DNA from: Mustelus asterias
Taxonomy: Eukaryota
Length of the DNA: 64,000 nt
Direction of reading: 5' to 3'
Assembly: GCF_964213995.1 (NCBI RefSeq)
Contig: NW_027590186.1
Span: 62,001 to 126,000 of the forward strand
Shown piece after piece: positions 4,295 to 57,312 of the stretch. The first letter of the stretch is position 1. Each line of letters opens with the position of its first letter. The position numbers and the translations under genes were made by a program. The notes under the pieces were generated by a model. That model was not told the origin of the DNA. It saw only the letters and a list, made by a program, of their open reading frames with translations, and did no database searches.

Positions 4295-5275
4295 TCAGTC
4301 CTGGATATGATTAACAGCATCATTAAGAGTAGAATCCAAACCTTGCAGTCGTTTGTGAACTCGCTGGTGTGTTAGCAGGTGGGATGACTGAATAAATCCC
4401 TTTCCACAGACATTACAGGTGAACGGCCTCTCCCCAGTGTGAACTCGCTGGTGTTTCAGAAGATAAGATAAATGAGAAAATCCCTTCCCACAGACAGAGC
4501 AGGTAAGTGGCCTCTCCGCACTGTGAACTTTCTGGTGTGTCAGCAGGTTGGATGACTGACTGAATCCCTTCCCACACACAGAGCAGGTGAACGGCCTCTC
4601 CCCAGTGTGAACTCGCTGGTGATTCAATAAGTTGGATGAACGAGTGAATCCCTTCCCACAGTCTGAGCAGGTGAAGGGCCTCTCCCCAGTGTGAATTCTC
4701 TGGTGGTTCAATAGGGCAGATGGACGGCTGAATCCCTTCCCACACACACAGCAGGTGAATGGCCTCTCCCCAGTGTGAGCATATTGGTGCGTTAGCAGAT
4801 CCTTTTTATTTTTAAAGCTCTTCGCACAGTGGGAACAATTAAAAAGTTTGTTATCAGAGTGAACAAGTTGATGTGTCTGCAAGTGGGATGACTGAATGAA
4901 TCCTTTCCCACACACAGAGCAGGTGAACGGTCTCTCCCCAGTGTGAATTCGTTGGTGTGTCAGCAGATCCTTTTTGCATTTAAAACTCTTCTCACAGTCA
5001 GAACATGTAAACATTCTCTCATCAGTGTGAACAAGTTGGTGTGTCACAATGTGGGATGAGCGAGTGAATCCCTTCCCACACACAGGGCAGGTGAACGGCC
5101 TCTCCCCAGTGTGAACCCGTTGGTGAGTCAGAAGGTTGTATGAATGGGTGAATCCCTTCCCACAGACGGAGCAGGTGAACGGTCTCTCCCCAGTGTGACT
5201 GCGCCGATGAACTTCCAGTTGTGATGGGAAACCGAATCCCTTCCCACAATCCACACATTTCCACGGTTTCTCCAT
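4295..5275 (-). CDS. C2H2 zinc-finger protein ZNF-A, 326 aa, 11 fingers, no KRAB/SCAN/BTB
   Basis: Intact ORF from MEKPWKC with TGERP linkers; Kozak CACCATGG; splice acceptor at 5635-5634; tail KRLQGLDS...VNHIQD. Confidence 0.9.
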
Positions 5276-5799
5276 GGTGCGGGTGTCCTTGTGTTTCTCC
5301 AGGTTGGATGATCAGTTCAAGCCTCATCCACACACACAACATACACGTAGTTTCACCCTGCTGTGAACTGTGATGTTTTTTCAGGCTGTGTAACTGGTTA
5401 AAGCTCTTTCCACATTCAGTTCACTGGAACACTCTCACTCGGGTGTGTGTTTGTCTCGATGCTTTTCCAGTCACAGTGATGTTTAATTTCTTTGCCCACA
5501 GGCAGAACAGACAAATATTTCTCTTTCTATATTCAAAGACCAATGATATTCAGCTCCGAAGGAACTGAATGACTTTGTCAGATGTGATGTCCGGTTTGAA
5601 TTTTCTGTCTGCCAATCTTTCACTTCCAATATCCTGTAAAAACAGTTTAGAAAAGTCATCACTGTCAGAACACGATACAAACTCTGAACAGACAATTCTA
5701 GTTCGTCTGGAACATTTTTTCCTCTCTTGTTCCCCCAAATCTGTAAATCTCCGTCCCACACACTCTCCCTCTTCCCTGGGCTGAAATCCAAACCCATCT

Positions 5800-6213
5800 C
5801 TACCATTTCTTTCCTCCACTCCCAGTTTTCTCCCTCCCTCTCCTCTGTCTGGGTTCAGTTCTCCAGCTCCTGTCTGCAGACTGACAATAAAACCAATGGG
5901 TCTTATTGGGGATGTTGGGGCCTCCAGCGGGTGTTTGTGAATCCTCCCCGCCCACCTCACAGGGTTTCCTTCCTTCCCAGAGATCAGAACCCTCATTGAT
6001 TTGAGGCCAAAGTGTAACCTCTTATTTATTGTCCCCCTCCCCCATCCTCTGATGTGAACCATCCTCCAGTGGCTGAGCCAGGATGGGGCCGTTAACCTGG
6101 GCCTGTTCCCGGGAGGGAGGGAGGGAGAAGCCCCGCAGCTGCAAACCAGGGAGCTGACAATGATTCTGAAGGGTTTGCGGATCCACAAAGTGTTTCCAAA
6201 TCCTCCCAGCCAC
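5800..6213 (-). repeat. About 410-bp segment nearly identical to 39138-39550 (inverted copy)
   Basis: ORF-track translations 5550..6383(-) and 39138..39602(+) are almost identical over about 135 codons. Confidence 0.9.
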
Positions 6214-6229
6214 CGCCTAACGCTGACTC

Positions 6230-6524
6230 CGCTTCTCCGTGACAAACAAGCGCCAAGGCCAGCAATGACACTGCGCATGCTCCACATCACAATGCCCGGG
6301 AGCTGATTGACGTCAGCTCCGGACCAATAGGAAGAGGGGGCGGGACTGGAGGACCGAGCGGGAGCGGCTGGTCCTCCAACCAATCGGAGTGAATGAGGGG
6401 CGGGACCTGAAGCATGCGCAGTGCGGGTAATGGCGGCGGCGGACGGACGGTTTCAACTTGGAAGCGAGAACAATACAAGGTAGAGGGCGGCGCGCGGGGA
6501 ATGATAAATGTGGCGGGTGGGTGG
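6230..6524 (-). promoter_or_regulatory. CpG promoter cassette of ZNF-A (copy 1)
   Basis: 13-bp inverted repeat CACTGCGCATGCT 6269-6281 / AGCATGCGCAGTG 6411-6423 (NRF1-like) enclosing CRE TGACGTCA, two CCAAT boxes and two GC boxes. Confidence 0.75.
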
Positions 6525-7320
6525 CCTTCAAAAAGAATACGGCCCGGCCGTACATCTTAGAGGCCGCGACAATGGCTGAGGGGCCGACAACCCCAGCCAT
6601 TGCCTTGACACAGGCCTCGATGGACATGTCGGGGTGGGCGTAGCACTTCACCCCGAGCTGCCGCGTGAGCAACGAAAAAGGTGGCAGGGCCTTGGGAGCG
6701 GCGGGGGCTCTGGCAGCCGCCACGCCCGCATAGGTGGGCCGAGAAGGCTCTGCCACGGCAGGGCGTATAAGAGGAGGGAAAAATAAGGGAGGGTAGGGTA
6801 GGTGGATGGGGATCTAGGTGCTCTCTCCCCGGAGCGAGAGAGGAGGTCGGAGGAGCAGGAGGGAGGACGAGGGACAAGGGACGGAGGGGGGCCGGTGCCC
6901 CAGTCAGGGGGAAAGAGGGGAGGGGGTGCCGGTGTTGGGGGCAGCAGCAGTGGGTGGGGGACTTTACTCCTCCAGCCCTTTTGGGCGCAAACAGTTCAAG
7001 TCCGGGGTGTCTTCGCCCGCCCGCCCGCCGATGGAAAAAACAGTCTGAATTTACTTCACCCCCCCATCCCTTTCAGGCACCGACCTTCTGATGATGAGGG
7101 CACCAGCCCAACCACTCAGTCCCTCGATGTTGAAACGTGCAGTCCTCCCTCCCATAGATGGAAAGAAAAAAGAAAGAAAGTCACTCCGTGTCCTCTCTCC
7201 CTCCAGGGAGAGAGCACCCTCCAGTGGGCGGACGGACGGAAGACAGGCAGGCCAGACGGCAGGCAGGCCGGACAGCAGGCAGGCAGGCAACAGCTCACCT
7301 TCCTCCCCCTTCCCACTTTC
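6525..7320 (-). mobile_element. Tx1-clade non-LTR retrotransposon 5' end (5' UTR and N-terminus of ORF1), 3' part lost
   Basis: ORF from 6756: PTYAGVAA...LTRQLGVKC...SIEACVKAMAGVVGPSAIVAASKMYGRAVFFLK resembles Tx1 ORF1p; GC/CT-rich leader. Confidence 0.75.
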
Positions 7321-7343
7321 AGATGCTGGAATTAACAAATTAA

Positions 7344-7416
7344 CATTCCTGCCCGGTTCTGACCCGGGGACCTTTCGCGTGTCAGGCAAACGTGACAACC
7401 ACTTCACTACAGAAAC
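7344..7416 (-). tRNA. tRNA-Val-derived gene, anticodon GAC, probable pseudogene
   Basis: GTTTCTGTAGTGAAGTGGTTGTCACGTTTGCCT-GAC-ACGCGAAAGGTCCCCGGGTCAGAACCGGGCAGGAATG, 73 nt, colinear with vertebrate tRNA-Val; damaged T-loop/B box and acceptor stem, no T4 terminator. Confidence 0.85.
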
Positions 7417-7599
7417 AACCTCTCTGATGTTGGAGACAGGAGGAAGTTTCAGTCTGTCTGAAGCTCAATCTTCATTCACGCAAAGCCCGCGCTCTGATCA
7501 GCTGAAGGACCAGAGTCCTTCCGGTCCTTCAACTCTTCCTATTAATCAACACCTCAGAAGGTCAGGGGGCAGGATCTGCCCTGCAATTCGCAGCTTCCC

Positions 7600-7900
7600 C
7601 CTCCCTTGGACATGCGCAGTCCCGGGCCGGGGGGAGGGGGAGATCACCGAGCAGCTTCTCGCTCTGGCCGGAGCCGCCAGCCGGTTGCCTGGAAACCTTG
7701 GCTCGATGTGGTGCAGGGGGAGGGGAACAATGGGTGGGGGACAATGGGTGGGGGCGGGGCTCCCGGGTCCGCGCGCCCGGGCCTGCGCACTGGAACCCAG
7801 AGACGTCACCGCGGAGCAGAGTGATTCCTATTGGCTGATTCAGGCAGGACTCCATTGTGACATCACAAAGGGGAAGTTGGCCAATGATGATGTAATTTAA
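7600..7900. promoter_or_regulatory. CpG-rich promoter-like segment
   Basis: CATGCGCA, GC box, GACGTCA, ATTGG, TGACATCA and CCAAT clustered. Confidence 0.45.
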
Positions 7901-8639
7901 ACAATGCCTGAGATCACTTCACTTCTTGGTCAGACCCCCTTTTCAGTCCAGTGCTACTTGGAGTTTACCGTCAATTCAACAACTATTGGGTTACAAGTCC
8001 CTCACAGTTCTGATCACAACTTCATGATAAAATAATTTAAATAATGCATGAGAACGCTTCTTACCGGACTACCTACCACTGGTCAGACCCCCTTTTTACA
8101 GATTCGGGAATCTCAGCCACTGAACACCAGCCGGTCCTGGAATAAGTTTCATTCTAACTCATTCTGAGTAAATATTCTCACCAGGTCCTCTGTCAGGACC
8201 CTGCTAAGCAGCTTTAATGGTTCATGATTGCAGAAACTGAGCAGTCACAGGAATGTGGTCAAGATAGTCCAGTCCCATAATGCCGCACATTTAATCTGCA
8301 GTCCTTCAGTTATAACAGAATATGTGGCTGTATGTAGCTGCCTCGGCCACGATCAGCGCCAACACTGCCTTCCTGAACTGCTATAATGCCGAAGGTGTAA
8401 GTACACCCACAGTGCTGTTAGGGAGGGATTTCCAGCTACACATTCCATACTTCCTCTAGACTGTGGGTGGATACGCGATTGAGACATTTCATTCAACTGC
8501 ACTCAAGCTGAGTTATTCAAATCCCTTTATTGTACGGGACAATATATTCATGATTTCTTTAAAACAGAAATTAAACATTCCCATTTGATTTCAGGTATTA
8601 ACATATTCTGTTAGTTTGTTCTTTATTGTCAATGTCAGG

Positions 8640-8925
8640 CTAGGGTTGTTCCCCTTGGAGCAAGGAGGTTGAGGGTAGATTTGATAGAGGTGGACAAGAT
8701 TCTGACAGGTTTAGATAAGATGGACAAAGAAAAGCTGTTCCCATTAGCTGACGAGAGAAGGACGAGGGGGACACAGATTTATGGTTTTGGGTCAGAGAGG
8801 AAGGGGGGATGTGAGGAAGAATATTTTGATGCAGTGAATGGTAATGACCTGGAACTTGCTGCCTACGAGGGTGGAGGAAGTGGAGACAATAAACAATTAC
8901 AAAGGAAATTGGATGGGCATCTGGG
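8640..8925 (+). mobile_element. Old CR1 3' fragment
   Basis: LRVDLIEVDKILTGLDKMDKEKLFPL. Confidence 0.7.
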
Positions 8926-9189
8926 GGAGTTTCAAACAGAAATGCTGACTAAAAATCTCTGAACTTCCTAACACCCTGTCACTCTGTGATCCGTGTGAAA
9001 TCTGAAACCAGGTATTCGCAACAAGACTCAAAGAGCATCAGCCCACTGGAGGCAAAGTCATGAGACCGGCCAGTCCAGCAGAAAGAAACCCTCCGACCCT
9101 CCCCATTGACCAACTGTGAGAATGAACAAAATGCAGTCCTGGATGTAATTGAGAGCAGAAACAATAACAGCAGAATCCAACCCCTGGAA

Positions 9190-10604
9190 TCACTCATGAG
9201 CATTTTGGTGTCTCAGCAGGGCGGATAAAACTCTGAAACCCTTCCCACACTGAGAGCAGGTGAATGGTCTCTCCCCAGTGTGAACTCGCTGGTGTGTCCG
9301 CAGGGTGGATAATTGACTGAACCCCTTCCCACACTGAGAGCAGGTGAACGGTCTCTCCCCAGTATGAAGGCGCTGGTGCGTCTGCAGGTTAGATAATTGA
9401 CTGAACCCCTTCCCGCACTGAGAGCAGGTGAACGGTCTCTCCCCAGTGTGAAGGCGCTGGTGCGTCTGCAGGTTAGATAATTGACTGAACCCCTTCCCGC
9501 ACTGAGAGCAGGTGAACGGTCTCTCCCCAGTGTGAACTCGCTGGTGCTTCTGCAGGTTAGATAATTGACTGAACCCCTTCTCACACTGAGAGCAGGTGAA
9601 CGGCCACTCCCCAGTGTGAACTCGCTGGTGAGTCCGCAGGGTGAATAAATCAGTGAATCCCTTCCCACACTGAGAGCAGGTGAACGGTCTCTCCCCAGTG
9701 TGAATTCGCTGGTGGGTCTCCAGCTTAGCTAATTGACTGAACCCCTTCCCACACATAGAGCAGGTGAAAGGCCACTCCCCAGTGTGAACTCGCTGGTGTC
9801 TCCGCAGAGTGGATAAATCAGTGAATCCCTTCCCACAATGAGAGCAGGTGAACGGTCTCTCCCCAGTGTGAATTCGCTGGTGCTTCTGCAGGTTAGATAA
9901 TTGACTGAACCCCTTCTCACACTCAGAGCAGGTGAACGGCCACTCCCCAGTGTGAACTCGCTGGTGAGTCCGCAGGGTGAATAAATCAGTGAACCCCTTC
10001 TCACACTGAGAGCAGGTGAATGGTCTCTCCCCAGTGTGAACTCGCTGGTGCGTCTGCAGCTCAGCTAATTGACTGAACCCCTTCCCACACATAGAGCAGG
10101 TGAACGGCCACTCCCCAGTGTGAACTCGCTGGTGTCTCCGCAGGGTGGATAAATCAGTGAATCCCTTCCCACACTGAAAGCAGGTGAAAGGTCTCTCCCC
10201 TGTGTGAACTCGCTGGTGTCTCTGCAGGTTAGCTAAATGACTGAACCCTTTCTCACACTGAGAGCAGGTGAACGGCCTCTCCCCAGTGTGAACTCGCTGG
10301 TGTCTCTGCAGGTTAGCCAATTGACCGTTCACCTGCTCTGTGTGTGGGAAATGGATTCAATCGGTCATCCAACCTGCAGCGACACCAACAAGTTCACAAG
10401 TGATTGCAGGGGTTGGATTCTTTCTCTCTCAATCTTTCTCTCTCTCTCTCTCTCTCTCAGCAGATTCGATGAATGATTGAATCCCTTCCCACAAGTGGAG
10501 CATATGAACGGTCTCTCCCCGGTGTGACTGCGTCGATGAGATTCCACCCCAGATGGGGCTCTGAATCCCTTCCCACAGTCTCCACATTTCCATGGTTTCT
10601 CCAT
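9190..10604 (-). pseudogene. ZNF-B: rearranged gene; 5' part (ATG 10604, about 1.8 fingers) separated by (GA)n and an inverted finger from an open 13-finger array (10320-9190)
   Basis: ORFs 10365..10823 and 9190..10332; the array has no N-terminal ATG of its own; 84-bp near-identical repeats. Confidence 0.8.
10421..10458. repeat. (CT)n/(GA)n microsatellite inside ZNF-B
   Basis: tttctctctcaatctttctctctctctctctctctctc. Confidence 0.9.
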
Positions 10605-10884
10605 GGTGTCGGAGTCCTTGTGTCTCTCCACAATCAGTGCACTGGAACACTCTGATACGGGTGTGAGAATCTCAGTGCTTTTCCAGTCAAAACCTCTCCT
10701 TCCAATATACACTGAAAGCAGTTTACAAAAATCATCACTGTCAGCACATGATAGTAATTCAAAACAGACAATTGTAGTTTCTATGGAACATTCTTTAAAT
10801 CTCCACCCACGCCCCTCACACATACACTCTCTCTCTCATTCCATTTAGCATTCTGCGGCACGGTGGCACAGTGGTTAGCACCAT

Positions 10885-11158: not shown

Positions 11159-11159
11159 A

Positions 11160-14160: not shown

Positions 14161-14164
14161 TTAT

Positions 14165-19800: not shown

Positions 19801-20004
19801 GGAGGGGATGGGTCAGTGGGAGGATCTTCTCCTGGACCTGCTCTAGACCCTGGTTAGAACAGTAATCCAGGGTGGGTGGGGCTGAAGGGGGTGGCGGGGG
19901 TCACTCTGACAGATCTTCTGTGGTCTTGTCTGTGCCCAGGTGACCCTGGAGAGGGAGATTCTATCGGGGGTTTGTTGCTGATTAGTTTGATTTAATCACA
20001 AGTT

Positions 20005-20200
20005 TGGGGAAACGAGAGGAAAGAATGTTCCAGAGAAACTGGAATTGTCTATTCTGAATTTCTATCCTGCACTGATAGTGACACTGACACTGTCAACTCT
20101 TTTTACAGGGGATTAGAAGGGGAGGATTTACTGATAGAAAACTCAGATCAAACATCTGACAGTCACTCATTTCATCAGGACCTGAATTTCACAGACGTTT
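20005..20200 (+). pseudogene. Orphan ZNF intron end, acceptor and fossil linker with no finger array
   Basis: AAGAATGTTCCAGAGAAACT..TTTTACAG|GGGATTAGAAGGGGAGGATTT matches the acceptor module of the ZNF genes. Confidence 0.7.
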
Positions 20201-26810: not shown

Positions 26811-27864
26811 TGTATTTATATATCCAAATGTGCTATGTTAACAAAATGGACAGTTACTAACCGAAGTATAAAGCATTATGTGATTTAGCTGACTTGACCA
26901 TAATCCTATAGTTATTCAGTCATTAAAGACACAGTCATGGAGCATTAAACTTGCTGAGCAGGGCCCCTTGTATCAACACACAGGCAGCTGCTTTGTGAGA
27001 CTGCGAGCAGAACAGACAAGTCAGAGATAAGAGTGTCTTGAGAAGAGAGATTCATTGTGAAGGATCAGGGACAGTTGATAAGATGTAGGAATTCTATGAT
27101 TCTAATGAACATTCTTTCCTCTCTCATTCCCCAACAGCTGTAAATCTCCATCCCACACACTCTCCCTCCATTCTCACTCTGCTGTATCTAATATTCACCC
27201 TCCCAATTCTCCTGAAGGTGCTGATTGAGGCTGATTGACAGATCCATGCTCACTGCTTCCTCTCCACCACACACAAATCATAAGAAACAGGAGCTGCAGT
27301 TGGCCATTCAGCCCATCGAACTGCCTCAACCATTCATTGAGAATTGGCTGATCTACCGCAGCATCATTTCCCACGCTATCCCCCAGATAGAGAGAGAATA
27401 GAGCCAATGTTTCGAGTCTGGAGAGAGGAAAGAATGTTCCATAGAAACTAGAATTGTGTGTTCTGAATTTCTATCCTGCACTGACACTGATGATCTCTGT
27501 AAACTTGTTTTACAGGATACTGAAAGAGGAATCACAGGCCGAAATCTCAAACGTCACATCTAGATCTGACAGTCATATTCCTTGGGACCTGAATATTATC
27601 GGCCTTTGTATCTTGAAGGAGAAATTGTTGTCTGGGCTGTCAGTTTGAAAAGATTTCAAATGTCAGTGTGACTGGAAAAGCAGCAACACACTGCCACACT
27701 AGAGTGAGAGTGTTCCAGTGCCCTGACTAAAGAGCTTTAACCAGTTACACAGCCTGAATAAATATCACACCATTCACAGCGGGGAGAGACTGTACCCGTG
27801 TTCTGTGTGTGGACAAGGCTTCAACTGATTGTCCACCCAAGAGAGAGGCAAGGACACCTGCACC

Positions 27865-28623
27865 ATGGAGAAACCATGGAAATGTGCGGACTGTGGGAAG
27901 AGATACGGAGCCCCTTCAGAGCTGGAAGTTCATCGGCGCAGCCACACTGGGGAGAAGCCATTCATCTGCTCTCAGTGTGAGAAGGGATTCAGTCAGTTAT
28001 CCAACCTGCAGAGACACCAGCGAGTTCACACTGGGGAGAGACTGTTCACCTGCTCTCAGTGTGAGAAGGGATTCAGTCAGTTATCTGGCCTGCAGGCACA
28101 CCAGCGAGTTCACACTGGGGAGAGGCCGTTCACCTGCTCTCAGTGTGGGAAGGGATTCACTGATTTATCCACCCTGCTGACACACCAGCGAGTTCACACT
28201 GGGGAGAGACCGTTCACCTGCCCTCAGTGTGGGAAAGGGTTCAGTCGATTATCTAACCTGCAGATGCACCTGCGTGTTCACACTGGGGAGAGGCCGTTCA
28301 CCTGCTCTCAGTGTGAGAAGGGATTCAGTCAGTTATCCAGCCTGCTGACACACCAGCGAGTTCACACTGGGGAGAGGCCATTCACCTGCTCTCAGTGTGG
28401 GAAGGGATTCACTGATTTATCCACCCTGCGTAGACACCAGCGAGTTCACACTGGGGAGAGGCCGTTCACCTGCTCTCAGTGTGGGAAGGGGTTCAGTCAA
28501 TTATCTGACCTGCAGATACACCAGCGAGTTCACACTGGGGAGAGGCCGTTCACCTGCTCTCAGTGTGGGAAGGGATTCAAAGTTTCATCCCGGCTGCTGA
28601 GACACCAAAAAGTTCATGAATGA
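27865..28623 (+). CDS. C2H2 zinc-finger protein ZNF-C, 252 aa, 9 fingers
   Basis: Kozak CACCATGG at 27865; acceptor TTTTACAG|G at 27515/27516; homogeneous 84-bp repeats; paralog of ZNF-B. Confidence 0.88.
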
Positions 28624-28856
28624 TTCCAGGGGTTGGATTCTGCTGTTATTGTTTCTGCTCTCAATTACACCCAGGACTGCATTTTGTTCATTCTCACAGT
28701 TGGTCAATGGGGAGGGGCGGAGGGTTTCTTTCTGCTGGACTGGCCGGTCTCATGACTTTGCCCCCAGTGGGCTGATGCTCTTTGAGCCTCGTTGCGAATA
28801 CCTGGTTTCAGATTTCACAAGGATCACAGAGTGACAGGGTGTGAGGAAGTTCAGAG
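28620..28856 (+). repeat. ZNF 3' UTR block nearly identical to 8955-9192 (inverted) and related to 63680-63835
   Basis: Track ORFs 28616..28834 and 8979..9203 differ at only a few residues. Confidence 0.9.
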
Positions 28857-29274
28857 AGGGCAATGGACAGCAGGGCGGTGGCCATCTTTATAGGGGGCAA
28901 TGGGCAACAGGACGCATGTGCAGCCGCCACCTCTATAGGAGGCAGTGGGCATTGATTCCAGAAGTTAGTTCCTGGCCTCCAGAATTGGTCCCTTTCCATT
29001 AAGCCACAGAAACATTGAATTATTGCACTACAGAAAATGACTAACCAGTCACGCATGTGCTGGTTCTCTGCAAGGAAATCAGCTCATCCCACTACCCTGT
29101 CTTTTCACTAACAAGACCAACAGAAAATATTTCCCATCCCCAATTACCTGTGGAGAAGATTATGTTTTATCTTCTTGATCAGCTGCAGTCCATGTGGTGA
29201 AGGTGCTCCCCTTTAGGTCAAGAGTTACAGGCTATTCACCCAGTGATGAAGAAGGGACAGTGATACATCTCCAA

Positions 29275-32385: not shown

Positions 32386-32879
32386 AAACAAAGGAATGGG
32401 TGATGGTTTCAGCCGCAGATGAACTGAGAGTAGACTGGAGTTGGGTGATGTTACTGAGGTGGAACTGGTCTTGGTAATGATGTGGATTTGTGGTCAGATT
32501 CTCAGGTTGGGTGAAATATTTTGCTCTGGTTGTGGCTCAGTCTCAGACAGTTTCCGAGGAGAGGGATGGAGTCAATGGGTAGAATTTGTAGCAGAGAGCG
32601 GTGACAATAACTGCAGTTTTCCCAGGATTAAAATGGAGGAAAATTCTAGCCCAGAGCTGGAGAGCTTTTTCAGGGAATCAAAGGATTCGGGGAGGGGGTG
32701 GGAAATTGGCGCTAAAAGCAGCTCAATTTAACAATCTGCATTTCTGTTTTTGAGAGTTCTCTCTCACTCCCTTTTTTCTGTTTTAAATCAGTTTCACAGG
32801 GCATTAGAAGGGGAAGATTTGCAGTCAGGGAAACAAACCAAACATCACATCAGGATCTGAATATCATCGGGTTTTTAAC

Positions 32880-33833
32880 ATGCAAGAAAACAGCAATGTT
32901 CACAGTGTAGATAAACCGTGGAAATCTGGGGACTGTGAGCAGGGATTCAGATCCCCGTCTGAGCTGGAAACTCATCAGCCCTGTCACGCTGGGGAGAGGC
33001 CATTCACCTGCCCTGAGTGTGGGAAGGGATTCACTTGGTCATCCAACCTGTTGAGGCACCAGCGTGTTCATAATGGGCAGAAGCCATTCACCTGTCCCGA
33101 GTGTGGGAAGGGATTCACTCGATCATCTGGGCTGCAACAACACCACCGAGTTCACACAGGGGAGAGGCCATTCACCTGCTCCAAGTGTGGGAAGGGATTT
33201 ACTGATTCATCCACTCTGCTGAAACATCAGCAAGTTCACACTGATGAGAGACCATTTAAATGCCTGGACTGTGGGAAGTGCTATAAAAGTTCTCAGAACC
33301 TAATGCGACATCAGCATGTTCACACTGAGGAGAGACCCTTCAGATGCTCTCACTGTGAGACTGGGTTCAGACAATCATCTGAACTCACTGCACATCAGCG
33401 AATTCACACTGGGGAGAAGCCGTTCATCTGTTTCAAATGTGGGAAGAGATTCACTCGATCATCAGGGCTTCTACAACACCATCGAGTTCACACATGGGAG
33501 AGACCTTTTAAATGTGCTGACTGTGAGAAATGCTATAAAGGTTCTGTGGACCTGATGCGCCATCAGCTTGTTCACACTGACGAGAGACCGTTCAGGTGCT
33601 CTCACTGCGGAACTGGGTTTAGACAATTATGTCAACTGACTGCACACCAGCGGGTTCACACTGGGGAGAAGCCGTTCATCTGTTTGCAGTGTGAGAAAGG
33701 ATTCACTCAATCAGCCACCCTGCAGAGACACCAGCGAGTTCACACTGGGGAGAGACCATTCACCTGCTCTCAGTGTGGGAAGAGATTCACTCGCTCATCC
33801 ACCCTGATGAGTCACCAGCGAGTTCACAAATAA
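32880..33833 (+). CDS. C2H2 zinc-finger protein ZNF-D, 317 aa, 10 intact fingers and 1 degenerate finger
   Basis: Open ORF with TGERP/TDERP linkers; acceptor TTTCACAG near 32799. Confidence 0.87.
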
Positions 33834-36358: not shown

Positions 36359-36892
36359 TCACTCGTGAAGTCGCTGGTGTGTCACCAGGTGGGAGGAGGT
36401 AGTGAATCCCTTCCCACACTCTGAGCAGGTGAATGGTCTCTCCCCAGTGTGAAGTCGCTGATGTGCTTTGAGGCTGGATGAATGTCTGAAGCTCTTTCCA
36501 CAGTCAGTGCAGCTGAACGGCCTCTCCTCAGTGTGAACTCTCTGGTGTGTCACGAGGTTGGATGAATTAATGAATCGCTTTCCACACACGGAGCAGGTGA
36601 ACGGCCTCTCCCCAGTATGAATTCTCCGGTGTAATTGTAGGTTATACATCTGGACGAATCCCTTCCCACACACAGAGCAAGTGTACGGTCTCTCTCCAGT
36701 GTGAACTCGCTGGTGTAATGTTAGGCAGGATGATTGAGTAAATTCCTTCCAACACACGGGGCAGGTGAAGGGCCTCTCCCCAGTGTGGGTGCGTCGATGA
36801 GTTTCCAGTTTGGATGGGCAAGTGAATGCTTTCCCACAGTCCACACATATCCACGGTTTTTCTATGGTGTCAATATCATCATGTCTCTCCAT
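36359..36892 (-). CDS. C2H2 zinc-finger protein ZNF-E, 177 aa, 6 fingers
   Basis: Open ORF; the family start ATG is ATA here (IEKPW) and an ATG 9 codons upstream is in frame. Confidence 0.78.
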
Positions 36893-37364
36893 ATTGGGTG
36901 ATTAGTTGAAGCCTCATCCACACAATGAACACATGCACAGATTCACATTGCTGTGAATGGTGTGATGTTTTTTCAGGCTGTGTAACTGGTTAAAGCTCTT
37001 TCCACAGTCAGTTCACTGGAAAACTCTCACTCGGGTGTGTCTCTCTCTCGGTGCTTTTCCAGTCACACTGAAGTTTGAAATATTTCCCCACACTCCACAT
37101 TCAAAGGCTGATAGTGTTCAGGTGCTGGTGAATTGAGCAACTGTTAAATCTTGGTGTGAAACTTGATTCCATTTTGCTGACTGTAAATTTTCCCCTTCAA
37201 ATATCCTGCAAAAGGAGTTTACAAAACTACTGTCAGTCCAGGATAGAATTCTGATCAGACAAGTCTAATTTCTAAGGAACAACTTTTCTGGTCTGGTTCC
37301 CCAAAACAGTAAATCTATGTCTCCCTCCTCCCTGAGCTCTCCCTCTCCCCTCCTCCCTGAGCTG

Positions 37365-39100: not shown

Positions 39101-40516
39101 CAGGAAACAGGCCCTGGCTTTACCGCAGGGACAGCAGGTGGCTGGACATTGGGGAGGATTTGGAAACAATTTGTGGATCCGCAAACCCTTCAGAATCATT
39201 GTCAGCTCCCTGGTTTGCAGCTGCGGGGCTTCTCCCTCCCTCCCTCCCGGGAACAGGCCCAGGTTAACGGCCCCATCCTGGCTCAGCCACTGGAGGATGG
39301 TTCACATCAGAGGATGGGGGAGGGGGACAATAAATAAGAGGTTACACTTTGGCCTCAAATCAATGAGGACTCTGATCTCTGGAAAGGAAGGAAAGCCTGT
39401 GAGGTGGGCGGGGAGGATTCACAAACACCTGTTGGAGGCTGCAAACCCCCCAATCAGACCCATTGGTTTTATTGTTAGTCTGCAGACAGGAGCTGGAGAA
39501 CTGAACCCAGACAGAGGAGAGGGAGGGAGAAAACTGGGAGTGGAGGAAAGTGAATTGTCTGTTCAGCGTTTCTATTGTGGATTGACACTGAAAGATGTTT
39601 AAAAACTGCTTTTACACATTGTTACAAATTGACGATTTACACACAGAAAACTCAACTCCAAGAGGAATGTTTGTCTCTCTGTGATTTCTGTTCTGCATTG
39701 ACTGTGATTATTTTTGTAAACAGAGATTACAGCTTTCAGGAAAGATTAAATGGATTGAAGTTTTTTCCTGTTGAGCAGTGATCTGATAGAAGTCTTTAAA
39801 ATTATTAGTGGCTTGGACAGGGGAAATATGGGGAGAATGTTTCCACTCCTGACAGAGTCTAAAAGAAGGAACAATCAATAGACAAAGAGTCATAAATACC
39901 AGATAGTTACTAATAAATCCAAGAAGGCAATAAGGACAAACGTCTTCACTCACAGGTTTAGAATCACCATCGAAATGAGTTGAGGAAAGTGCTGAGATTG
40001 TTTCAAAAGGAAATGGGAGAAGCACACGAGAGAAAAAGAAATAGAAAAATCAACTGAAAGGCTGAGATGAGGTATATGGGACAGGAGACGATGTGTCAAG
40101 TATAAAGAATTAAACTGAATGGCTTGTTTGTGTCTTGTATATTCAAAGTAATTCAATGTAAACTCCTTTTCCAGAATATCTGCAGACGGGCGATTCAAAC
40201 CAAACGTCTCGGGATCTGACAGTGTCACATGGTTCTTCAGGATCTGAATATCAAAGGCCTATGAATGTGGAAGGAGAAATGTTTGCCTATTTTGTCTTTG
40301 GGAAATTATTCAACATCAGTGTGACTGGAAAAGCCCCGAGACACAGACATCTCAGTTACTTTTCCACAGTCAGCTGGAACAGAGCTTTAACCAGTCACAC
40401 AGTGTGAAAAGAAATAGCACATTTACATCAGGTAGACACCGTACTTGTGTTCTTTGTGTGGACCTGGTTTCAACTGATTAAATAACCTGGAGAGACAGGA
40501 GGACACCGGCATCATG

Positions 40517-40638
40517 TGAACAAGGAGCAGCAATAGGCCATTCGGCCCCACGGGCCAGTTCTGCATTTAATAACATCATGGCTGATCTGATAGTGAGCTC
40601 AAATCTGCATCCCGCCTACACCCGATAGCCTGTCAATA
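40517..40638 (-). mobile_element. Short CR1 3' tail inserted at the ZNF-F start codon
   Basis: AGGAGCAGCAATAGGCCATTCGGCCC...CATGGCTGATCTG flanked by the direct repeat ATCATG (40511-40516, 40639-40644). Confidence 0.75.
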
Positions 40639-40641
40639 ATC

Positions 40642-41790
40642 ATGGAGAAACCGTGGAAATGTGCGAACTGTGGGACGGGATTCAATTACCCATCTGAATT
40701 GGAAACCCATCGACGTATTCACACTGGGGAGAGACCATTCACCTGCTGTGTGTGTGGGAAGGGATTCACTCAGTCATCCAGCCTGTACACACACCAGCAT
40801 GTCCATACTGGTGAGAGGCCATTCACCTGTCTTCAATGTGGGAAGGGATTTAATGCTTTATCAAACCTCCGGACTCACCACCAGGTTCACTCTGATCAGA
40901 GACCGTTTAAATGTTGTGAGTGTGGGAAGAGCTTTAAAAGCAGAAAGGATTTGATGATTCACCAACGCACTCACGCTGGGGAGAGGCCATTCATCTGCAA
41001 CATGTGTGGTAAGGGATTCACTCAGTCATCCCACCTCCTGACACACCAAAGTGTTCACACTGATCAGAGACCATTTAAATGTTCTGATTGTGAGAAGAAC
41101 TTTAAAAGTAAAAAGGATTTACTGATTCACCAACGCACTCACACTGGGGAGAGGCCGTTCATCTGCTCCGTGTGTGGGAAGGGATTCACTTGTTCATCCC
41201 AGCTCCTGAAACATCGATTTGTTCACACTGATCAGAGACCTTTCAATTGTTCTGAATGTGAGAAAACATTTAAAAGCAAAAAGGATCTTCTGAAACACCA
41301 GCACACTCACACTGGGGAGAGGCCGTTCACCTGCTCTCTCTGTGGGAAGGGATTCACTCGGTTAGCTCACCTTCTGAGACACCATCGAGTTCACACTGGG
41401 GAGAGGCCGTTCACCTGCCCTGTGTGTTGTCAGGAATTCATTGATACATCCGACCTTCTGATACACCGGCGAGTTCACACTGGAGAGAGACCTTACACTT
41501 GCCTCCTGTGCGGCAAGAGATTCACTCAGTCATCCCACCTGACTACACACCAACTTGTTCACACTGATCAGAGACCTTTTGAATGTTCTGATTGTGAGAA
41601 GAGATTTAAAAGTAAACAGAATCTGCTGAAACACCAGCGAGTTCACACTGGGGAAAGGCCGTTCAACTGCTCCATGTGTGGGAAGGGATTCGCTCAGTCA
41701 AACAACCTGCTGAAACACCAGCAAGTTCACAGGCGACAGCAGGGGTTGGATTCTGCTGTTATTGCTGCTGTTAATCACACCCAGGACTGA
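40642..41790 (+). CDS. C2H2 zinc-finger protein ZNF-F, 382 aa, 13 fingers
   Basis: Intact ORF from MEKPWKC; tail RRQQGLDSAVIAAVNHTQD; same subfamily as ZNF-A (KxKKDLL fingers). Confidence 0.9.
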   Translation: MEKPWKCANCGTGFNYPSELETHRRIHTGERPFTCCVCGKGFTQSSSLYTHQHVHTGERPFTCLQCGKGFNALSNLRTHHQVHSDQRPFKCCECGKSFKSRKDLMIHQRTHAGERPFICNMCGKGFTQSSHLLTHQSVHTDQRPFKCSDCEKNFKSKKDLLIHQRTHTGERPFICSVCGKGFTCSSQLLKHRFVHTDQRPFNCSECEKTFKSKKDLLKHQHTHTGERPFTCSLCGKGFTRLAHLLRHHRVHTGERPFTCPVCCQEFIDTSDLLIHRRVHTGERPYTCLLCGKRFTQSSHLTTHQLVHTDQRPFECSDCEKRFKSKQNLLKHQRVHTGERPFNCSMCGKGFAQSNNLLKHQQVHRRQQGLDSAVIAAVNHTQD

Positions 41791-47633: not shown

Positions 47634-48114
47634 AGGCTCCAGCTGGCAATGTGTGCATCCAGTGTGGAGGAGGCTCCAGCTGGCAATGTGTGCATCCAGT
47701 GTGGAGGAGGCTCCAGCTGGCAATGTGTGCATCCAGTGTGGAGGAGGCTCCAGCTGGCAATGTGTGCATCCAGTGTGGAGGAGGCTCCAGCTGGCAATGT
47801 GTGCATCCAGTGTGGAGGAGGCTCCAGCTGGCAATGTGTGCATCCAGTGTGGAGGAGGCTCCAGCTGACAATGTGTGCATCCAGTGTGGAGGAGGCTCCA
47901 GCTGGCAATGTGTGCATCCAGCGTGGAGGCGGCTCCAGCTGGCAATGTGTGCATCCAGAGTGGAGGAGGCTCCAGCTGGCAATGTGTGCATCCAGTGTGG
48001 AGGAGGCTCCAGTTGGCAATGATGTACATCCAGTGTGGAGGAGGCTCCAGCTGGCAATGTGTGCATCCAGTGTGGAGGTAGCTCCAGTTGGCAATGATGT
48101 GCATCCAGTGTGGA
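47634..48114 (+). repeat. Minisatellite, about 13 x 37 bp, AGGCTCCAGCTGGCAATGTGTGCATCCAGTGTGGAGG
   Basis: Head-to-tail near-identical units with no spacers. Confidence 0.97.
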
Positions 48115-48462
48115 CATAGCGACAGCTGCCAGGGTCACTTTCACCTTGTGCCGGTCCCACACATTCCCAGGTTCATTCAGCTCAATTTCACAACCCGCCT
48201 TTTTGTTTCTGTGGGTTCTCTCTCACTCCTTTTTCTCTGTTTTAAATCCTTTCCACAGAGTATCGGAAGGGGAGGAGTTACAGTCAGGAAACAACCTCAT
48301 CATCGCATCAAAGTCTGACAGCCGCTGAATGCATCCTTACCTGAATATCGTCAGATTTTGAACATAGAACTGAAAAGCTCCATTGACAGTGGAGAGAAAC
48401 TGTACATGTGTTCTGTGTGTGGACAAGCCTTCAGCCTGTTGAAACGTTAGTGCAGTCACTCC

Positions 48463-49053
48463 ATGGAGAAACCGTGGAAATGTGTGGACTGTGGGAAGGG
48501 ATTCCGTTACCCATCCAAGCTGGAAATCCATCGTCGTAGTCACACTGGGGAGAGGCCATTCTCCTGCTCTGAGTGTGAGAAGGGGTTCGTTAGGTCCTCC
48601 CACTTGCTGACACACCAGCAAATTCACACTGGGAAAAGACAATTCACCTGCACCGAATGTGGGAAGGGATTCACTCAGTCATCCAAACTGCTATCACACC
48701 AGCGAGTTCATACTGGGGAGAGACCATTCACCTGCTCCGAATGTGGGAAAGGATTCACTGCTTCATCTTACCTGCTGACACATCAACGTGTTCACACTGA
48801 TGAGAGACCTTTTAAATGCTCAGACTGTGGGAAGTGCTTTAAAAGATCTGGTGTACTGATGCGCCATCAATGTGCTCACACTGACGAGAGGCCATTCAGA
48901 TGCAGACACTGTGGGACTGGGTTCAGACAATCATATAACCTCACTGTACATCAGCGAATTCACACTGGGGAGAGGCCGTTCACCTGCTCTGATTGTGGCA
49001 AGGGATTCTCTCAGTCATCCAACCTTCTGAAACACCAACGAATCCACAATTAA
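48463..49053 (+). CDS. C2H2 zinc-finger protein ZNF-G, 196 aa, 7 fingers
   Basis: Intact ORF from MEKPWKC; acceptor TTCCACAG at 48258. Confidence 0.87.
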
Positions 49054-52500: not shown

Positions 52501-52614
52501 AATATCTCCACTGTATGTGGCATCTGCGCTATCTTACACATGTAATGAAGTAAACACGACAAAATTCAACAAAATACAAAAGGTATTGTTACTGAGAGAA
52601 TACATATCATCAAT

Positions 52615-53030
52615 ATTTGATTTAATTTATTAGTGTTGCATGTACTAGGATACAGTGAAAAGTATTGTTTCTTATGTACTAGACAAACAAAGCATACTGT
52701 TCATAGAGTACAGAGGGGAAAAGGAAAGGATACGGTGCAGAATATAGTGCTGTAGTTACAGGTATGGTGAAGGGAAAGATCAGCTTAATATACGGTAGGT
52801 CCAGTCAAAATTCTGATGCAGCAAGGAAGTTGTTCTTGAATTAGTTGGCAGGTGTTTTCAGACTTTTGTATCTTTTTCTCGACAGAAGCAGGTGGAAGAG
52901 AGAAGGTCCGGGGTATGAGGGGTTCTTGATTATGCTGGCTGCTTTCTGAGGCAGTGGGAAGTGTAGAGAGAGTCAATGGATGGGAGACTGGTTTGTGTGA
53001 TGGACTGGGGTACGTTCAGAACCCACAACC
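52615..53030 (-). mobile_element. Rex1 3' fragment
   Basis: Homologous to 13770-14160. Confidence 0.8.
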
Positions 53031-53656
53031 CTTTGTAATATTACTATGTGAATACATCACTAATAAAGGAGTTAGTGAGAGTGAAAGAGAAGGCTCTGAA
53101 AATCAAAGAGTAGCTCTTGAGAAAATCTCAAACCAGTCATTTAAAAATATATATTTTGATGCCCGAAGTAGAACCTTTCAGGCACAGAATTGTAGATTTT
53201 CCACCAAAGAACAATTTAGGATTAAAGTAAAAGTTTATAATTTTGTTGTAACAGAATTCCTGTTGAAAGTTAGAACATAGAAAGCCACAGCACAAACAGG
53301 CCCTTCGGCCCACAAGTTGCGCTGATCATATCCCTACCTCTAGGCCTATCTATAGCCCTCAATCCCATTAAATCCCATGTACTCATCCAGAAGTCTCTTA
53401 ATAGTTCTTGAATTAAAAGAAATGGTGTTGTCAAAAATGGACCCTGAAGCCCTGAAAATTGGTGACATCGCCAGAATATTAAACCCCAGCCAGTCATATC
53501 AGCAGGAACAAAACCACGTATCAATACTAAACAAGATAAACAGCAGCAGTAACAGCAGAATCCAACCCCTGCAGTCACTAATGAACTTGCTGATGTCTCA
53601 GGAACCATTGTGACTGAGTGAATCCCTTCCCACACACAGAGCAGTTAAATGGTCTC

Positions 53657-54562
53657 TTAGTGTGAGTGCATTGGTGAGCCAGCAGGTTGAACCCCAGGCA
53701 CGGAGCAAGTGAACGGCCTCTGCCCAGTGTGAACTCGCTGGTGAGCAGTGAGGTTGGATGACCGATTGAATCCTTTCCCACACACAGAGCAGCTGAATGG
53801 CCTCTCTCCAGTGTGAACTCGCTGGTGTAAAACAAGATTGGATGACTGCCTGAAACTCTTTCCACAGTCAGTGCAGCTGAATGGCTTCTCCTCAGTGTGA
53901 ATTCGTTGGTGTCTCAGCAGGGTGGGTAAAACTGTGAATCCCTTCCCACACATGGAACAAGTAAATGGTCTCTCCCCAGTGTGAATCCGTTGGTGTGCAA
54001 CGAGAGAGGTTGCCTGTCTGAAACTCTTTCCACAGGAAGTGCAGCTGAATGGCTTTTGAGTGTGAATCCGCTGGTGTGACAGCAGGTGGGATGACCCAGT
54101 GAATCCCTCCCCACACATGGAGCAGGTAAAAGGCCTCTCCCCAGTGTGAACTCGCTGGTGTAATGTGAAGTTGGATGACTGAGTGAATCTCTTTCCACAC
54201 TCAGGGCAGGCGAACAGTCTCTCCCCAGTGTGAGTGCGTTGGTGTGCCGTGAGTGCTGAAGAATGCCTGAACCTCTTTCCACAGGTAGTGCAGCTGAATG
54301 GCTTCTCCTCGGTGTGAATTCGCTGGTGTGACAAAAGGCCAGATAACTGAGTGAAAGCCTTCCCACACACAGAGCAGGTGAATGCCCTCTTCCCCGTGTG
54401 AACTCGCTGGTGTAATGATAGGTTGGATGACTGAGTGAATCCTTTCCCACATATAGAACAGGTGAATGGCCTCTCCCCAGTGTGACTGCGTTGATGGTTT
54501 TCCAGCAGGGATGGATAATTGAATCCTTTCCCACAATCTTCACATTTCCACCGTTTCTCCAT
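53657..54562 (-). CDS. C2H2 zinc-finger protein ZNF-H, about 301 aa, 10 intact fingers; frameshifting deletion in finger 11
   Basis: ATG at 54562 (MEKRWKC); ORF ends [16 protein letters not shown]; the original last finger survives in another frame (53578-53660). Confidence 0.78.
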
Positions 54563-55004
54563 GGTACCGGTATCCGTGTGTCTCTCGAGGTTGGACAATC
54601 AGTTCAAGTCTTGTCCAAACATTGAACAAATGTATGGTTTTTCCTCACCTTGTATTTTGCAATGTTTTCTCAAGCTGAATAACTGGTTAAAGCTCTTTCC
54701 ACAGTCAGTTCACTGGAACACTCACTCGGGTGTGTGTGTCTCGGTGCTTTTCCAGTCACTGATGTTTGAAATCATAGAAACCCTACAGTGCAGAAGGAGG
54801 CCATTCGGCCCATCGAGTCTGCACCGACCACAACCCCACCCAGGCCCTACCTGTTCTTTTGGAACAGTTGATCATTTATCCTTCCACATTCAAAGACCGA
54901 TGATATTCAGATCCTGATGAATGGAGTTACTCAACCAGAGCTTGATCTGACGTTTCACATCTGCAAATCCTTCGCTTCTGATCTCCTGTAGAAACAGTTC
55001 ACAA

Positions 55005-55600
55005 ACTCCGCTTCTCCGGGACAAACAAGCGCCAAGGCCAGCAATGACACTGCGCATGCTCCACATCACAACGCCCGGGGACTGATTGACGGCAGGTGCG
55101 GGCCAATAGGAAGAGGGGGCGGGGCTGGAGGACGGAGCGGGAGCGGCTGGTCCTCCAACCAATCAGAGTGAATGGGGGGCGGCCAGGTCGGGAGTGGAGC
55201 ATGCGCGGCAATGGTAAGGCGGTTGTGAGCCTGGCAACGCAGCGTGCGGTCTGAGCATGCTCAGTGTCAGTCATAGTGTCGGGGAGGGTGAGGAATGGAA
55301 ACCACGGCTGCGCTGGAAACGGCCTCGGGCCCCGCCTTCCCCGCGGGGACAAGCCCAAGGGCGGCGGGCTCGCGAGCTGCCATCTTACGAGTGTGAATGA
55401 GGGCGCTCAGAGAGGCGGAGCTTCCTCCCCGGTAATGGGCCTGGGTTACCTAGGCAACTATCTTGGGAGACGAAGTGGGTCTGGTTCAGCTGTCCTGCAA
55501 GGGTGGCCATCTTGGTGAGGGTATAGTGAGTGGGCGGAGCTTCTCCCCGTTGCAAGGTGCGGGTTACCCAGGCAACCGGCCGCCGCCATCTTGGAGCGGG
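55005..55600. promoter_or_regulatory. CpG promoter (copy 4) between head-to-head ZNF-H and ZNF-I
   Basis: Core 55048-55206 homologous to copies 1-3; GCCGCCATCTT. Confidence 0.72.
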
Positions 55601-56042
55601 ACAGAGACTGGGATTGACAAATTGGGGAGAGAATATTCCAGAGAAACGAGAATTGTCTGCTCTGAATTTCTATCCTGTACTCATTGTGAGCACTCTTTTC
55701 AAACCATTATCCAGGGGAGGATTTACACAAATTAAAATAAACATCAAAATCTGACAGAGATTTATCAGGAGCTGAATATCATCGACCTCTGCATGAGGAA
55801 GGAGAAATGTTTGTTTGGTCTGTGGGAAAAGATTTCAAACATCAGTGTGACTGGAAAAGCACCGAGACACACACATGAGTGAGAGTGTTCGAGTGAGCTA
55901 ACTATGGAAAGAGCTTCAACCAGTTACTCAGCCTGAAAAACATCACACCATTCACAGCGAGGAGAAACTGTACATGTGTTGTGTGTGTGAACGAGGCTTC
56001 AACTGATTGTCCAACCCGGAGAGACACAAGGGCACCGGCACC

Positions 56043-57312
56043 ATGAAGAAACCATGGAAATGTGGGGACTGTGAGAAGGGATTCAATTATCCATCCCGCC
56101 TGGAAATCCATCAGCACAGTCACACTGGGAACAGCATCACAGAGAGACCGCGGAAATGTGAGGATTGTGGTGAAGGATTCTATTATCCATGTCTGCTGGA
56201 AGTCCATTGACACAGTCACGCTGGGGAGAAGCTATTCACCTCTTGTGTGTGTGGAAAAGGATTTATTAAGGCAGTAAGCCTCATGTCACACCTGCAAATT
56301 CACACTGAGGAAAGACCGTATGGCTGCACATACTGTGAAAGGAGGTTTAAACAGTCATCTACCCTCACTGCACATCAGCAAATTCACACTGGGATGAGAC
56401 CATTCAGCTTCTCCGTGGAAAGAGATTCACCCAGTCCTCCATCCTGTTAATATACCAATCACTCACACGAGGGAGAAGCAATTCATCTGCTCCATATGTG
56501 AGAAAGGATTTACTCAGTCATCTGGCCTTTGGTCACACCACAGAGTTCACACTGAGGAGAGGCCATACCCTTGCTCTGTCTGTGGGAAGGAATTTACTCA
56601 GTTATCTCACCCTGCTAACATACCAGAGAAATCACACTGGGAAGAAGCCACACAGCTGCACTTCCTGTGGGAAGAGCTTCAGGTCTTCATCCAACCTCAG
56701 TACACAGAAGCGTGTTCACACTGGGGAGAAATCATTCACCTGCTCCGAGTGTGGGATGGAATTCACTCAGTCAGCCAACCTAGAAATACACAAGAGAATT
56801 CACACTGAGGAGAAACCATTCAGCTGCACCTCCTGTGGAAAGAGTTTCAGGCAGTTATCCACACTCACTGAACACCAATGCACTCACACTGGGGAGAGGC
56901 CATTCACCTGCGCTGTGTGGGGGAAGGGATTCACTCAGTCAGCCAGCCTCATGTTAAACCAGCAAGTTCACACTGAGGAGAGTCTGTTCAACTGCACTCA
57001 CTGTAGAAAGAAATTCAGGCAGTCTTCCGCGCTCACTGCACACCAGCGAATTCACATTAGGGAAAAATCATTCAACTGCTCCGTATGTGGGAAGGGCTTC
57101 ACTCAGTCATCTGGGCTTTGGTCACACCAGCGAGTTCTCACTGGGGAGAAGCCATTCAGCTGAACTCTCTGTGAAAAGAGTTCCAGATCTTCATCTGATC
57201 TGAACGTACAAAGCGAGTTCACACTGGGGAGAGGTCGTTCACCTGCTGTGTGTGTGGAAAGGGTTTCACTCGGTCAGCCAATCTGCGGACACACCAGAGC
57301 GTTCACAAGTGA
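56043..57312 (+). pseudogene. ZNF-I pseudogene
   Basis: MKKPWKC start, duplicated first finger, stop after LLEVH, several frameshifts, ends HK*. Confidence 0.88.

What the first reader, a model, noticed from the sequence alone, without database searches (positions are those of the whole stretch)
4295..57312. Decapitated zinc-finger family: start codon made from a finger linker, behind a fossil coding leader
Seen: after a conserved acceptor most genes carry a decayed frame of roughly ILEGEDLQTENSNQTS...GEMFVCSVCG.RFQTSV*LEKH...FQ(C/*)[47 protein letters not shown], i.e. an acidic linker plus three dead fingers. The ATG replaces the Gly of the TGEKP linker and usually has a strong Kozak (ACCATGG). 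An in-frame stop lies exactly 13 codons upstream of it in six copies (5314-5312, 27826-27828, 36904-36902, 40475-40477, 54601-54599, 56004-56006). Inference: an ancestor lost its N-terminal (perhaps effector) part, re-initiated inside the array and then amplified as a promoter-leader-array unit. The result would be effector-less DNA binders, possibly a shark counterpart of KRAB-ZNF clusters acting by occupancy or through a partner protein. I cannot tell whether this has been described.
Basis: partly seen in the sequence, partly recalled or inferred. Interest (0 to 1): 0.72.

Follow-up and report, generated by a model that had tools for sequence, protein, structure and literature searches.

The report
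Shark zinc fingers behind fossil leader
About three thousand zinc-finger genes in what is likely a shark genome have their reading frame begin inside a former finger-to-finger linker, with the old front of the protein left behind as a broken, untranslatable leader; two intact relatives show what was lost, and the genes likely make bare, fast-evolving DNA-binding proteins whose targets are unknown.

Summary
Real, and genome-wide. All six cited stops lie 13 codons before the linker codon, but only three precede an intact ATG-started array. The genome has 2,940 exact matches to this start; 1,176 carry the TGA against 51 with a non-T first base, mostly secondary losses. The leader decays as non-coding DNA. 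The arrays are under purifying selection, with excess amino-acid change at DNA-contact positions in older pairs. Two solitary intact relatives (G000:C1, C857) keep the same acceptor, acidic linker, three fingers and linker Gly open, which shows the leader is a fossil. The C1 gene's predicted first exon is only 12 codons, and the only KRAB hits are PRDM9-like, so loss of an effector is not shown. A sister class starts at a different ATG behind the same dead linker. RNA-like contigs splice a first exon to two leader acceptors. Part of the leader is unusually conserved as nucleotides; a proposed RNA stem has no covariation support. Targets and translation are untested. The scan noted this family before on other pieces of this genome; sequence and word look-ups found no note on the intact relatives. 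New variant of tandem zinc-finger clusters.

The parts
4295..5275 (-). Class A gene, intact ORF, 326 aa, 11 C2H2 fingers, starts at the linker-derived ATG
5276..5633 (-). Fossil leader (5' UTR part of last exon): acidic linker + three dead fingers; stops at 5473-5471 and 5314-5312; second acceptor inside dead finger 2 near 5424
5634..7084 (-). GT..AG intron ending at the ancestral phase-2 acceptor; joined across in contigs of runs X19 and X22 (one sample; 27 letters on the short side)
7085..7479 (-). Upstream exon of that spliced form; holds an ATG (7155) in frame with the leader that ends at a TAA in dead finger 1 (upstream ORF of 73 codons), and a tRNA-Val-like segment 7343-7417
6200..6520 (-). 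CpG-rich promoter-like block with CCAAT and GC boxes, shared with many family genes
7600..7870 (-). Second promoter-like block (CCAAT, TGACGT, GC-rich), related to the first-exon region of other copies
9190..10709 (-). Class A gene with deleted leader, mutated acceptor, ATG at 10604; array interrupted after finger 1; 13 near-identical fingers follow in another frame
20003..20191 (+). Orphan intron end, acceptor (20109) and acidic linker without fingers
27516..27864 (+). Fossil leader, stop at 27826-27828
27865..28623 (+). Class A gene, intact ORF, 252 aa, 9 fingers
32800..33833 (+). Class B-type gene: same acceptor and dead linker, ATG at 32880 in the linker, finger 3 deleted, 10 fingers
36359..37205 (-). 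Class A gene; linker codon is ATA (36865), replaced by in-frame ATG at 36892 just behind the TAA (36904-36902); 6 fingers
40175..41790 (+). Class A gene; stop 40475-40477, ATG TGA at 40514, ~128-nt insertion bounded by a repeated ATCATG, ORF restarts at 40642 (382 aa, 13 fingers)
48259..49053 (+). Class B-type leader that lost its own ATG (ATA) and carries ATG at the same linker position as class A (48463), stop 5 codons upstream; 7 fingers
53657..54985 (-). Class A gene, ORF from 54562 (301 aa, 10 fingers), stop 54601-54599, repeat insertion in the leader; head to head with 56043
55626..57312 (+). Class A pseudogene: intron end and leader, stop 56004-56006, ATG AAG at 56043, array broken after 55 aa
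63838..64000 (-). 3' end of the next family gene (11 fingers; linker codon ACG, in-frame ATG 9 codons upstream, beyond the window)

Best explanation
This is a family of about 3,000 tandem C2H2 zinc-finger genes, likely of a shark, whose reading frame starts at an ATG standing in place of a linker glycine, behind a stop-ridden remnant of the ancestral acidic linker and first three fingers; they are predicted to make finger-only proteins that likely bind fast-changing DNA targets such as transposons without a built-in silencing domain. Shown: two intact relatives read open from the same phase-2 acceptor through linker, fingers 1-3 and the linker Gly. The cluster copies share two TGA stops and decay without regard to frame. 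The arrays keep Cys/His/Phe/Leu strictly and vary at contact residues. Inferred: one ancestor gained the ATG (GGG>AGG>ATG; AGG is common in the sister class) and the two stops, was expressed from a non-coding first exon, and spread by tandem and segmental duplication. Ribosomes would reach the strong-context ATG by leaky scanning or re-initiation past short upstream ORFs, or through a second acceptor inside dead finger 2 that skips most of them. Inferred by analogy only: action by occupancy or through a partner protein on repeats; I put transposon targeting at about 0.4.
For: Shared stop: 1,176 TGA vs 51 VRA matches, only 2 of the 51 CRA; none of 30 fetched stop-less copies has more than 72 open codons upstream. 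Leader non-coding: 114 new stops in 4,703 codons and 125 indels (21 multiples of 3), against 2 stops in 2,581 codons and 4 indels in the first two real fingers, 47 non-redundant copies. Intact relatives: 2 of the 150 best leader matches have no stop; full open frames; between them pN 0.14-0.27 vs pS 0.70-0.84 in fingers 1-3. Tree: the intact pair and 22 class B genes are split from all 47 class A by a 99/98 branch. Gly-position codon in class B: AGG 8, GGG 6, ATG 1, other 3 of 18. Arrays: 35 of 42 starts lead to >=5 fingers; core pN/pS 0.04-0.07; contact residues 1.58 in 24 pairs at ~9% divergence, P=3e-7. Acceptor AG kept in all ungapped of 47 copies. Spliced joints to both acceptors in RNA-like contigs. 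Replacement starts after loss of the ATG (36892, 40642) and the same start in a class B gene (48463). Same start and leader remnants in Heterodontus, Carcharodon and Cetorhinus protein models.
Against: No ribosome or protein data; the start site is inferred. RNA evidence is two joints, each one contig per run, from one sample whose library type is not on record (short sides 27 and 20 letters). Contact residues were below 1 (0.57) in 40 pairs at ~1% divergence, and against their own synonymous rate the older pairs give about 1.3; finger shuffling or conversion could inflate it. ORF sets were picked by having finger motifs, which favours intact genes. Copy number may be inflated: a 481-nt leader stretch is 100% identical at six places, several on small contigs. 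The cluster ancestor's first exon was not found. Seven B-labelled rows fall among class A in the tree (two are class A with deleted signatures, five have deletions in the aligned stretch). No target was predicted or tested.
Confidence: 0.72

Rival explanations
1. Same gene structure, but the proteins act mainly on something other than transposons: the zinc-finger clusters themselves, satellites or RNA, or as competitors of other finger proteins.
For: No silencing domain. The effector-less human ZNF146 binds L1 but is not needed to silence it in HEK293 cells (PMC8896011, passages). FiNZ-ZNF knockdown up-regulates FiNZ-ZNF genes most (PMC10547256, passage). A leader segment is conserved as nucleotides.
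Against: Excess change at contact residues and 70 different arrays among 99 ORFs fit a moving DNA target. ZNF and retroelement counts correlate across animals (PMC10547256, section read).
Confidence: 0.35
2. The units are mostly passive passengers of segmental duplication; the arrays are untranslated or neutral.
For: Identical copies on many contigs; 2 of the 10 window genes with a 5' end have broken arrays; leaders hold several upstream ATGs.
Against: Core pN/pS 0.04-0.07; stops and frameshifts fall sharply at the ATG; A at -3 in 39 of 42; replacement ATGs after loss.
Confidence: 0.08
3. An effector-coding exon (KRAB-like, FiNZ-like or unknown) is spliced onto the arrays in mature mRNA, bypassing the dead leader.
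For: The invariant acceptor is phase 2, as after a coding exon; one class B subfamily keeps the linker open; an earlier scan note reports a transposon-derived tail on a subset (e1-8795615, not tested).
Against: Both observed joints land upstream of the -13 stop; 5 of 5 first exons of the type examined have no ATG in an open phase-2 frame (66 of 71 genes had no exon of that type); KRAB only in PRDM9-like genes.
Confidence: 0.06
4. The TGA codons are read through or recoded, giving the full ancestral protein.
For: Most shared stops are TGA and the consensus leader is a near-perfect fossil protein.
Against: 104 of 125 leader indels shift the frame, TAA stops also occur, and new stops accumulate; the 3' tail behind the final TGA also decays as non-coding.
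Confidence: 0.02

Closest known systems
KRAB zinc-finger gene clusters of tetrapods (Wolf 2015 PMC4592553, search listing only; Liu 2014 PMC3971581, passages)
   Same: Tandem clusters, whole array in one last exon behind a linker, birth and death, fast change at contact residues.
   Different: No KRAB or other domain; the first exons examined are non-coding; the start lies inside the former array; the old N-terminus survives as a 5' UTR fossil shared by thousands of copies.
FiNZ-ZNF genes of cyprinid fish (Wells 2023 PMC10547256: one part of the text, passages, supplement rows)
   Same: Non-tetrapod expansion, chromosome-scale clustering, positive selection; the same paper's supplement counts 1,106-3,586 ZNF ORFs in four chromosome-level shark and skate assemblies.
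   Different: FiNZ is a conserved 28-aa acidic domain on its own coding exon; here the acidic linker is dead in the amplified genes. The main text has no mention of sharks.
ZNF146/OZF and ZNF507 (Creamer 2022 PMC8896011, passages)
   Same: Proteins of fingers only, without KRAB, that bind a transposon family.
   Different: Single conserved genes, not a family of thousands; no orthology to the shark genes was tested.
PRDM9
   Same: Some family arrays are near-identical 84-bp repeats (85-91%).
   Different: The genome's PRDM9-like copies on C20 have an unrelated last exon; no SET or KRAB in the family ORFs scanned.

Membership tests
Tandem C2H2 zinc-finger genes (ZNF-only type) | Array of C2H2 fingers joined by TGEKP-type linkers | tested here: met
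Tandem C2H2 zinc-finger genes (ZNF-only type) | No other recognisable domain in the ORF | tested here: met
   Pfam on two window ORFs and the C1 relative: zinc-finger-type families dominate, no KRAB/SCAN/BTB/SET listed; 74 of 99 ORFs end one residue after the last finger
KRAB-ZNF | N-terminal KRAB domain on upstream exon(s) | tested here: not met
   6 KRAB hits genome-wide (76 candidates scored), all in PRDM9-like tandem copies on C20
KRAB-ZNF | Clustered duplication with fast-evolving contact residues | tested here: met
   not seen at ~1% divergence
KRAB-ZNF | Binds transposons and recruits TRIM28/H3K9me3 | not testable with these tools
   needs ChIP and knockdown
FiNZ-ZNF | Conserved acidic N-terminal domain on its own coding exon, in frame with the array | tested here: not met
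   ORFs start inside the array; leader closed; no FiNZ profile was run; intact linkers match no Pfam family
PRDM9-derived | Last exon homologous to PRDM9's | tested here: not met
   C20 last exon differs by inspection of translations
Structured RNA element in the leader | Covarying base pairs | tested here: not met
   RNAalifold gives no structure; named 14-bp stem 85.5% paired but 2 compensated pairs vs 1.9 in shuffles; mean z -0.98

The most novel reading that the evidence does not exclude
Sharks run a KRAB-ZNF-scale transposon arms race with thousands of proteins that carry no effector at all, and the dead fingers in the leader were kept as a shared control sequence (a DNA site or mRNA element), possibly read by the surviving intact ancestor-type gene, that regulates the whole family together.
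Probability: 0.2. Interest if true: 0.82.

Novelty: new variant of a known kind. Interest (0 to 1): 0.58.

Why it matters
Cartilaginous fishes have thousands of zinc-finger ORFs on record (supplement of PMC10547256) but lack KRAB-domain gene families (PMC8455134, passage), so how they read and control repeats is open. This family gives the gene model, shows how it arose (a new start inside the array, at least twice), names two intact ancestor-type genes, and offers a shared leader and start that one antisense reagent could block, as was done for FiNZ-ZNFs. It also explains why automated models of these loci in other sharks are fused and frameshifted.

Tried and rejected
Protein database searches for an open ancestor with an N-terminal domain: generic finger proteins only, the query's own source, or 40%-identity bony-vertebrate fingers; no orthologue of the C1 gene was found, which is weak evidence. 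The ESM Atlas gave no result. PRDM9 origin rejected. TGA read-through rejected for leader and 3' tail (5 open, 15 closed tails). RNA stem not supported (the gapped alifold run returned nothing). A pattern for class B leaders with the class A start found 0 (it did not match 48463 either, so it is uninformative). C857's first exon is not available (simple repeat up to the contig start). No CpG-rich coding first exon was found for the open-linker class B subfamily by a crude scan. No RNA holder is on record; X19/X22 were judged RNA-like only from low intron cover against X20/X21. The retrotransposon-like piece at 6520-6760 has no Pfam match; the Tx1 label is recalled and echoed by earlier scan notes. 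No structure prediction or target-motif prediction was run.
Full report
Observation. The window (G000:C154:62001-126000, 3.68-Gb genome) holds ten zinc-finger genes with their 5' ends, one orphan leader and the tail of an eleventh gene. The six cited stops are in place, 13 codons before the linker codon. Only three lead into an intact ATG-started array. One copy has ATA with a replacement ATG nine codons upstream, one has ATG TGA and an insertion that repeats the ATG on its far side, and one is a pseudogene. Named proteins with the same start and leader remnants come from Heterodontus, Carcharodon and Cetorhinus, so the genome is likely a shark's; the species was not determined.

Scale and descent. 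The start motif has 2,940 exact matches. With the spacer fixed, 1,176 have TGA at -13 and 51 have a non-T first base. Only 2 of the 51 are CRA and most sit in one subfamily, so they are secondary losses; none of 30 fetched has more than 72 open codons upstream. In 47 non-redundant copies the -13 codon is a stop in 36 and the finger-1 codon in 40. Counts may be inflated by duplicated contigs.

The leader is a fossil. It has 114 new stops in 4,703 codons and 125 indels, 21 of them multiples of three; the first two real fingers have 2 stops in 2,581 codons and 4 indels (copies were chosen by leader signature and by nearby finger motifs). Read-through is excluded by the frameshifts. The 3' tail behind the last finger is likewise closed in 15 of 20 and decays.

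Living relatives. Of the 150 best genomic matches to the dead fingers, two have no stop: G000:C1 near 169.14 Mb and C857 near 4.3 kb. A second search from the C1 gene found no further full-length open copy among 150 (two partial stop-free hits have 89- and 93-aa frames). Both read open from the same phase-2 acceptor through the acidic linker and three complete fingers, have Trp at the finger-1 stop and keep Gly in the linker. No other array was seen in 60 kb and 50 kb around them. Between them fingers 1-3 have pN 0.14-0.27 against pS 0.70-0.84. The C1 gene has a CpG-rich promoter-like site 1.75 kb upstream, with an ATG, 12 codons plus two bases and a GT donor in the matching phase. This exon is predicted, not seen in RNA, could be in phase by chance one time in three, and is unique in the genome. 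The intact linkers match no Pfam family. The six KRAB hits in the genome lie in tandem PRDM9-like genes with an unrelated last exon. What was demonstrably lost is about 40 acidic residues and three fingers; an effector domain is not shown.

A sister class. Class B (355 exact matches) shares acceptor and linker, lacks fingers 1-2, starts at an ATG at the end of the linker (16 of 18 parsed; 11 of 29 not parsed) and has a closed or shifted linker in 17 of 18. At the Gly position it has GGG (6), AGG (8), ATG (1) or other (3), which supplies the one-step intermediate. A tree of 78 rows separates the intact pair plus 22 class B genes from all class A with 99/98 support; seven B-labelled rows with deletions fall among class A. 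Window gene 48463 is class B by leader and tree yet starts like class A, by convergence or conversion.

Transcripts. No run on record as RNA holds the stretch. In X19 and X22 (one sample) intron bins are depleted relative to X20 and X21. One contig in each joins 7085 to the ancestral acceptor at 5633 across a GT..AG intron. One X22 contig joins a short first exon to a second acceptor inside dead finger 2, about 150 nt before the ATG. The first acceptor's AG is kept in every ungapped copy of 47, the second in 73%; 17 of 36 copies have no upstream ATG behind the second. Five first exons of the type examined have no ATG in an open phase-2 frame (66 of 71 genes lacked that type).

Selection on the arrays. 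35 of 42 starts lead to five or more fingers, and 39 have A at -3 (regions were partly chosen around earlier hits). In 40 pairs at ~1% divergence pN/pS is 0.38 overall, 0.07 at structural and 0.57 at contact residues. In 24 pairs at ~9% it is 0.04 at structural and 1.58 at contact residues (P=3e-7; about 1.3 against those codons' own pS). There are 70 distinct contact-residue arrays among 99 ORFs.

Unexplained. The leader from -215 to -1 changes less than intron or four-fold sites (3.2-4.7 vs 7.4 and 6.1 changes per site). Without signature selection the excess is modest (finger 2 identity 0.885 vs 0.81 linker and 0.86 intron; higher than linker in 29 of 35, than intron in 22 of 35). Synonymous distance from the intact C1 gene is 0.17 in this segment against 0.50 elsewhere (P=0.0006). 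Nucleotide constraint or gene conversion could explain this. The stem suggested by an earlier scan note has no covariation support.

Known context. Ten literature searches found no description of this gene structure; the library lacks most subscription papers. Wells 2023 (PMC10547256; one text part, passages, supplement rows; three supplement files not searched) lists ZNF ORF counts of 3,586 for Scyliorhinus canicula, 1,851 for Carcharodon, 1,223 for Amblyraja and 475 for Callorhinchus and does not mention sharks in the main text. The whale shark paper (PMC8455134, passages) notes loss of KRAB-domain families in cartilaginous fishes. The Squalomix preprint (10.1101/2025.06.08.657570, passages) has no zinc-finger mention in its main text; its supplements were not available and may bear on this. 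PMC11603059 (one passage) places KRAB-ZNF origin in bony fishes. ZNF146/OZF is a finger-only L1 binder (PMC8896011, passages). The scan has noted this family before on other pieces of this genome; look-ups for the intact relative by words and by sequence returned nothing.

Verdict. The anatomy and origin are well supported. The start site is inferred, the lost effector is not shown, and the function is open. New variant of a known kind; interest 0.58.

Noticed in passing
G000:C20:1,560,000-1,730,000 (L096-L101, L142-L154): Tandem PRDM9-like genes about 27 kb apart: six KRAB exon hits and five last exons with minisatellite-like arrays of different length in the parts fetched.
   Followed up: partly
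window 6520-7300 (-): Retrotransposon-like 5' fragment (Tx1-like by recall; no Pfam match) between two promoter blocks; it supplies the splice donor at 7085 for gene 5275.
   Followed up: partly
window 7343-7417 and G000:C154:220,000-236,000: tRNA genes (Val, Glu, Gln, Lys) interspersed among the zinc-finger genes.
   Followed up: no
window 36865/40514 and 54562/56043; L013:7660-9840: Family genes often sit head to head around one CpG-rich promoter region.
   Followed up: partly
window 4295-4350 and 41730-41790: A 19-residue C-terminal tail is open in some genes (CGA in place of the usual TGA) and closed in most; related sequence follows the C1 gene's stop.
   Followed up: yes
window 8956-9189 and 28624-28857: 3' flanks of genes 10604 and 27865 are 97% identical, and both arrays are internally homogenised 84-bp repeats.
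   Followed up: no
window 47634-48114: 37-bp minisatellite, 13 copies, in the intron upstream of gene 48463.
   Followed up: no
L067-L071, L233-L239: A class B subfamily keeps the acidic linker open from the acceptor; no coding first exon found by a crude scan.
   Followed up: partly
L198:4300-5590 (G000:C857): The second intact relative is GC-rich and lacks the class B ATG, so it probably needs an upstream coding exon that lies beyond a 4-kb simple repeat at the contig start.
   Followed up: partly
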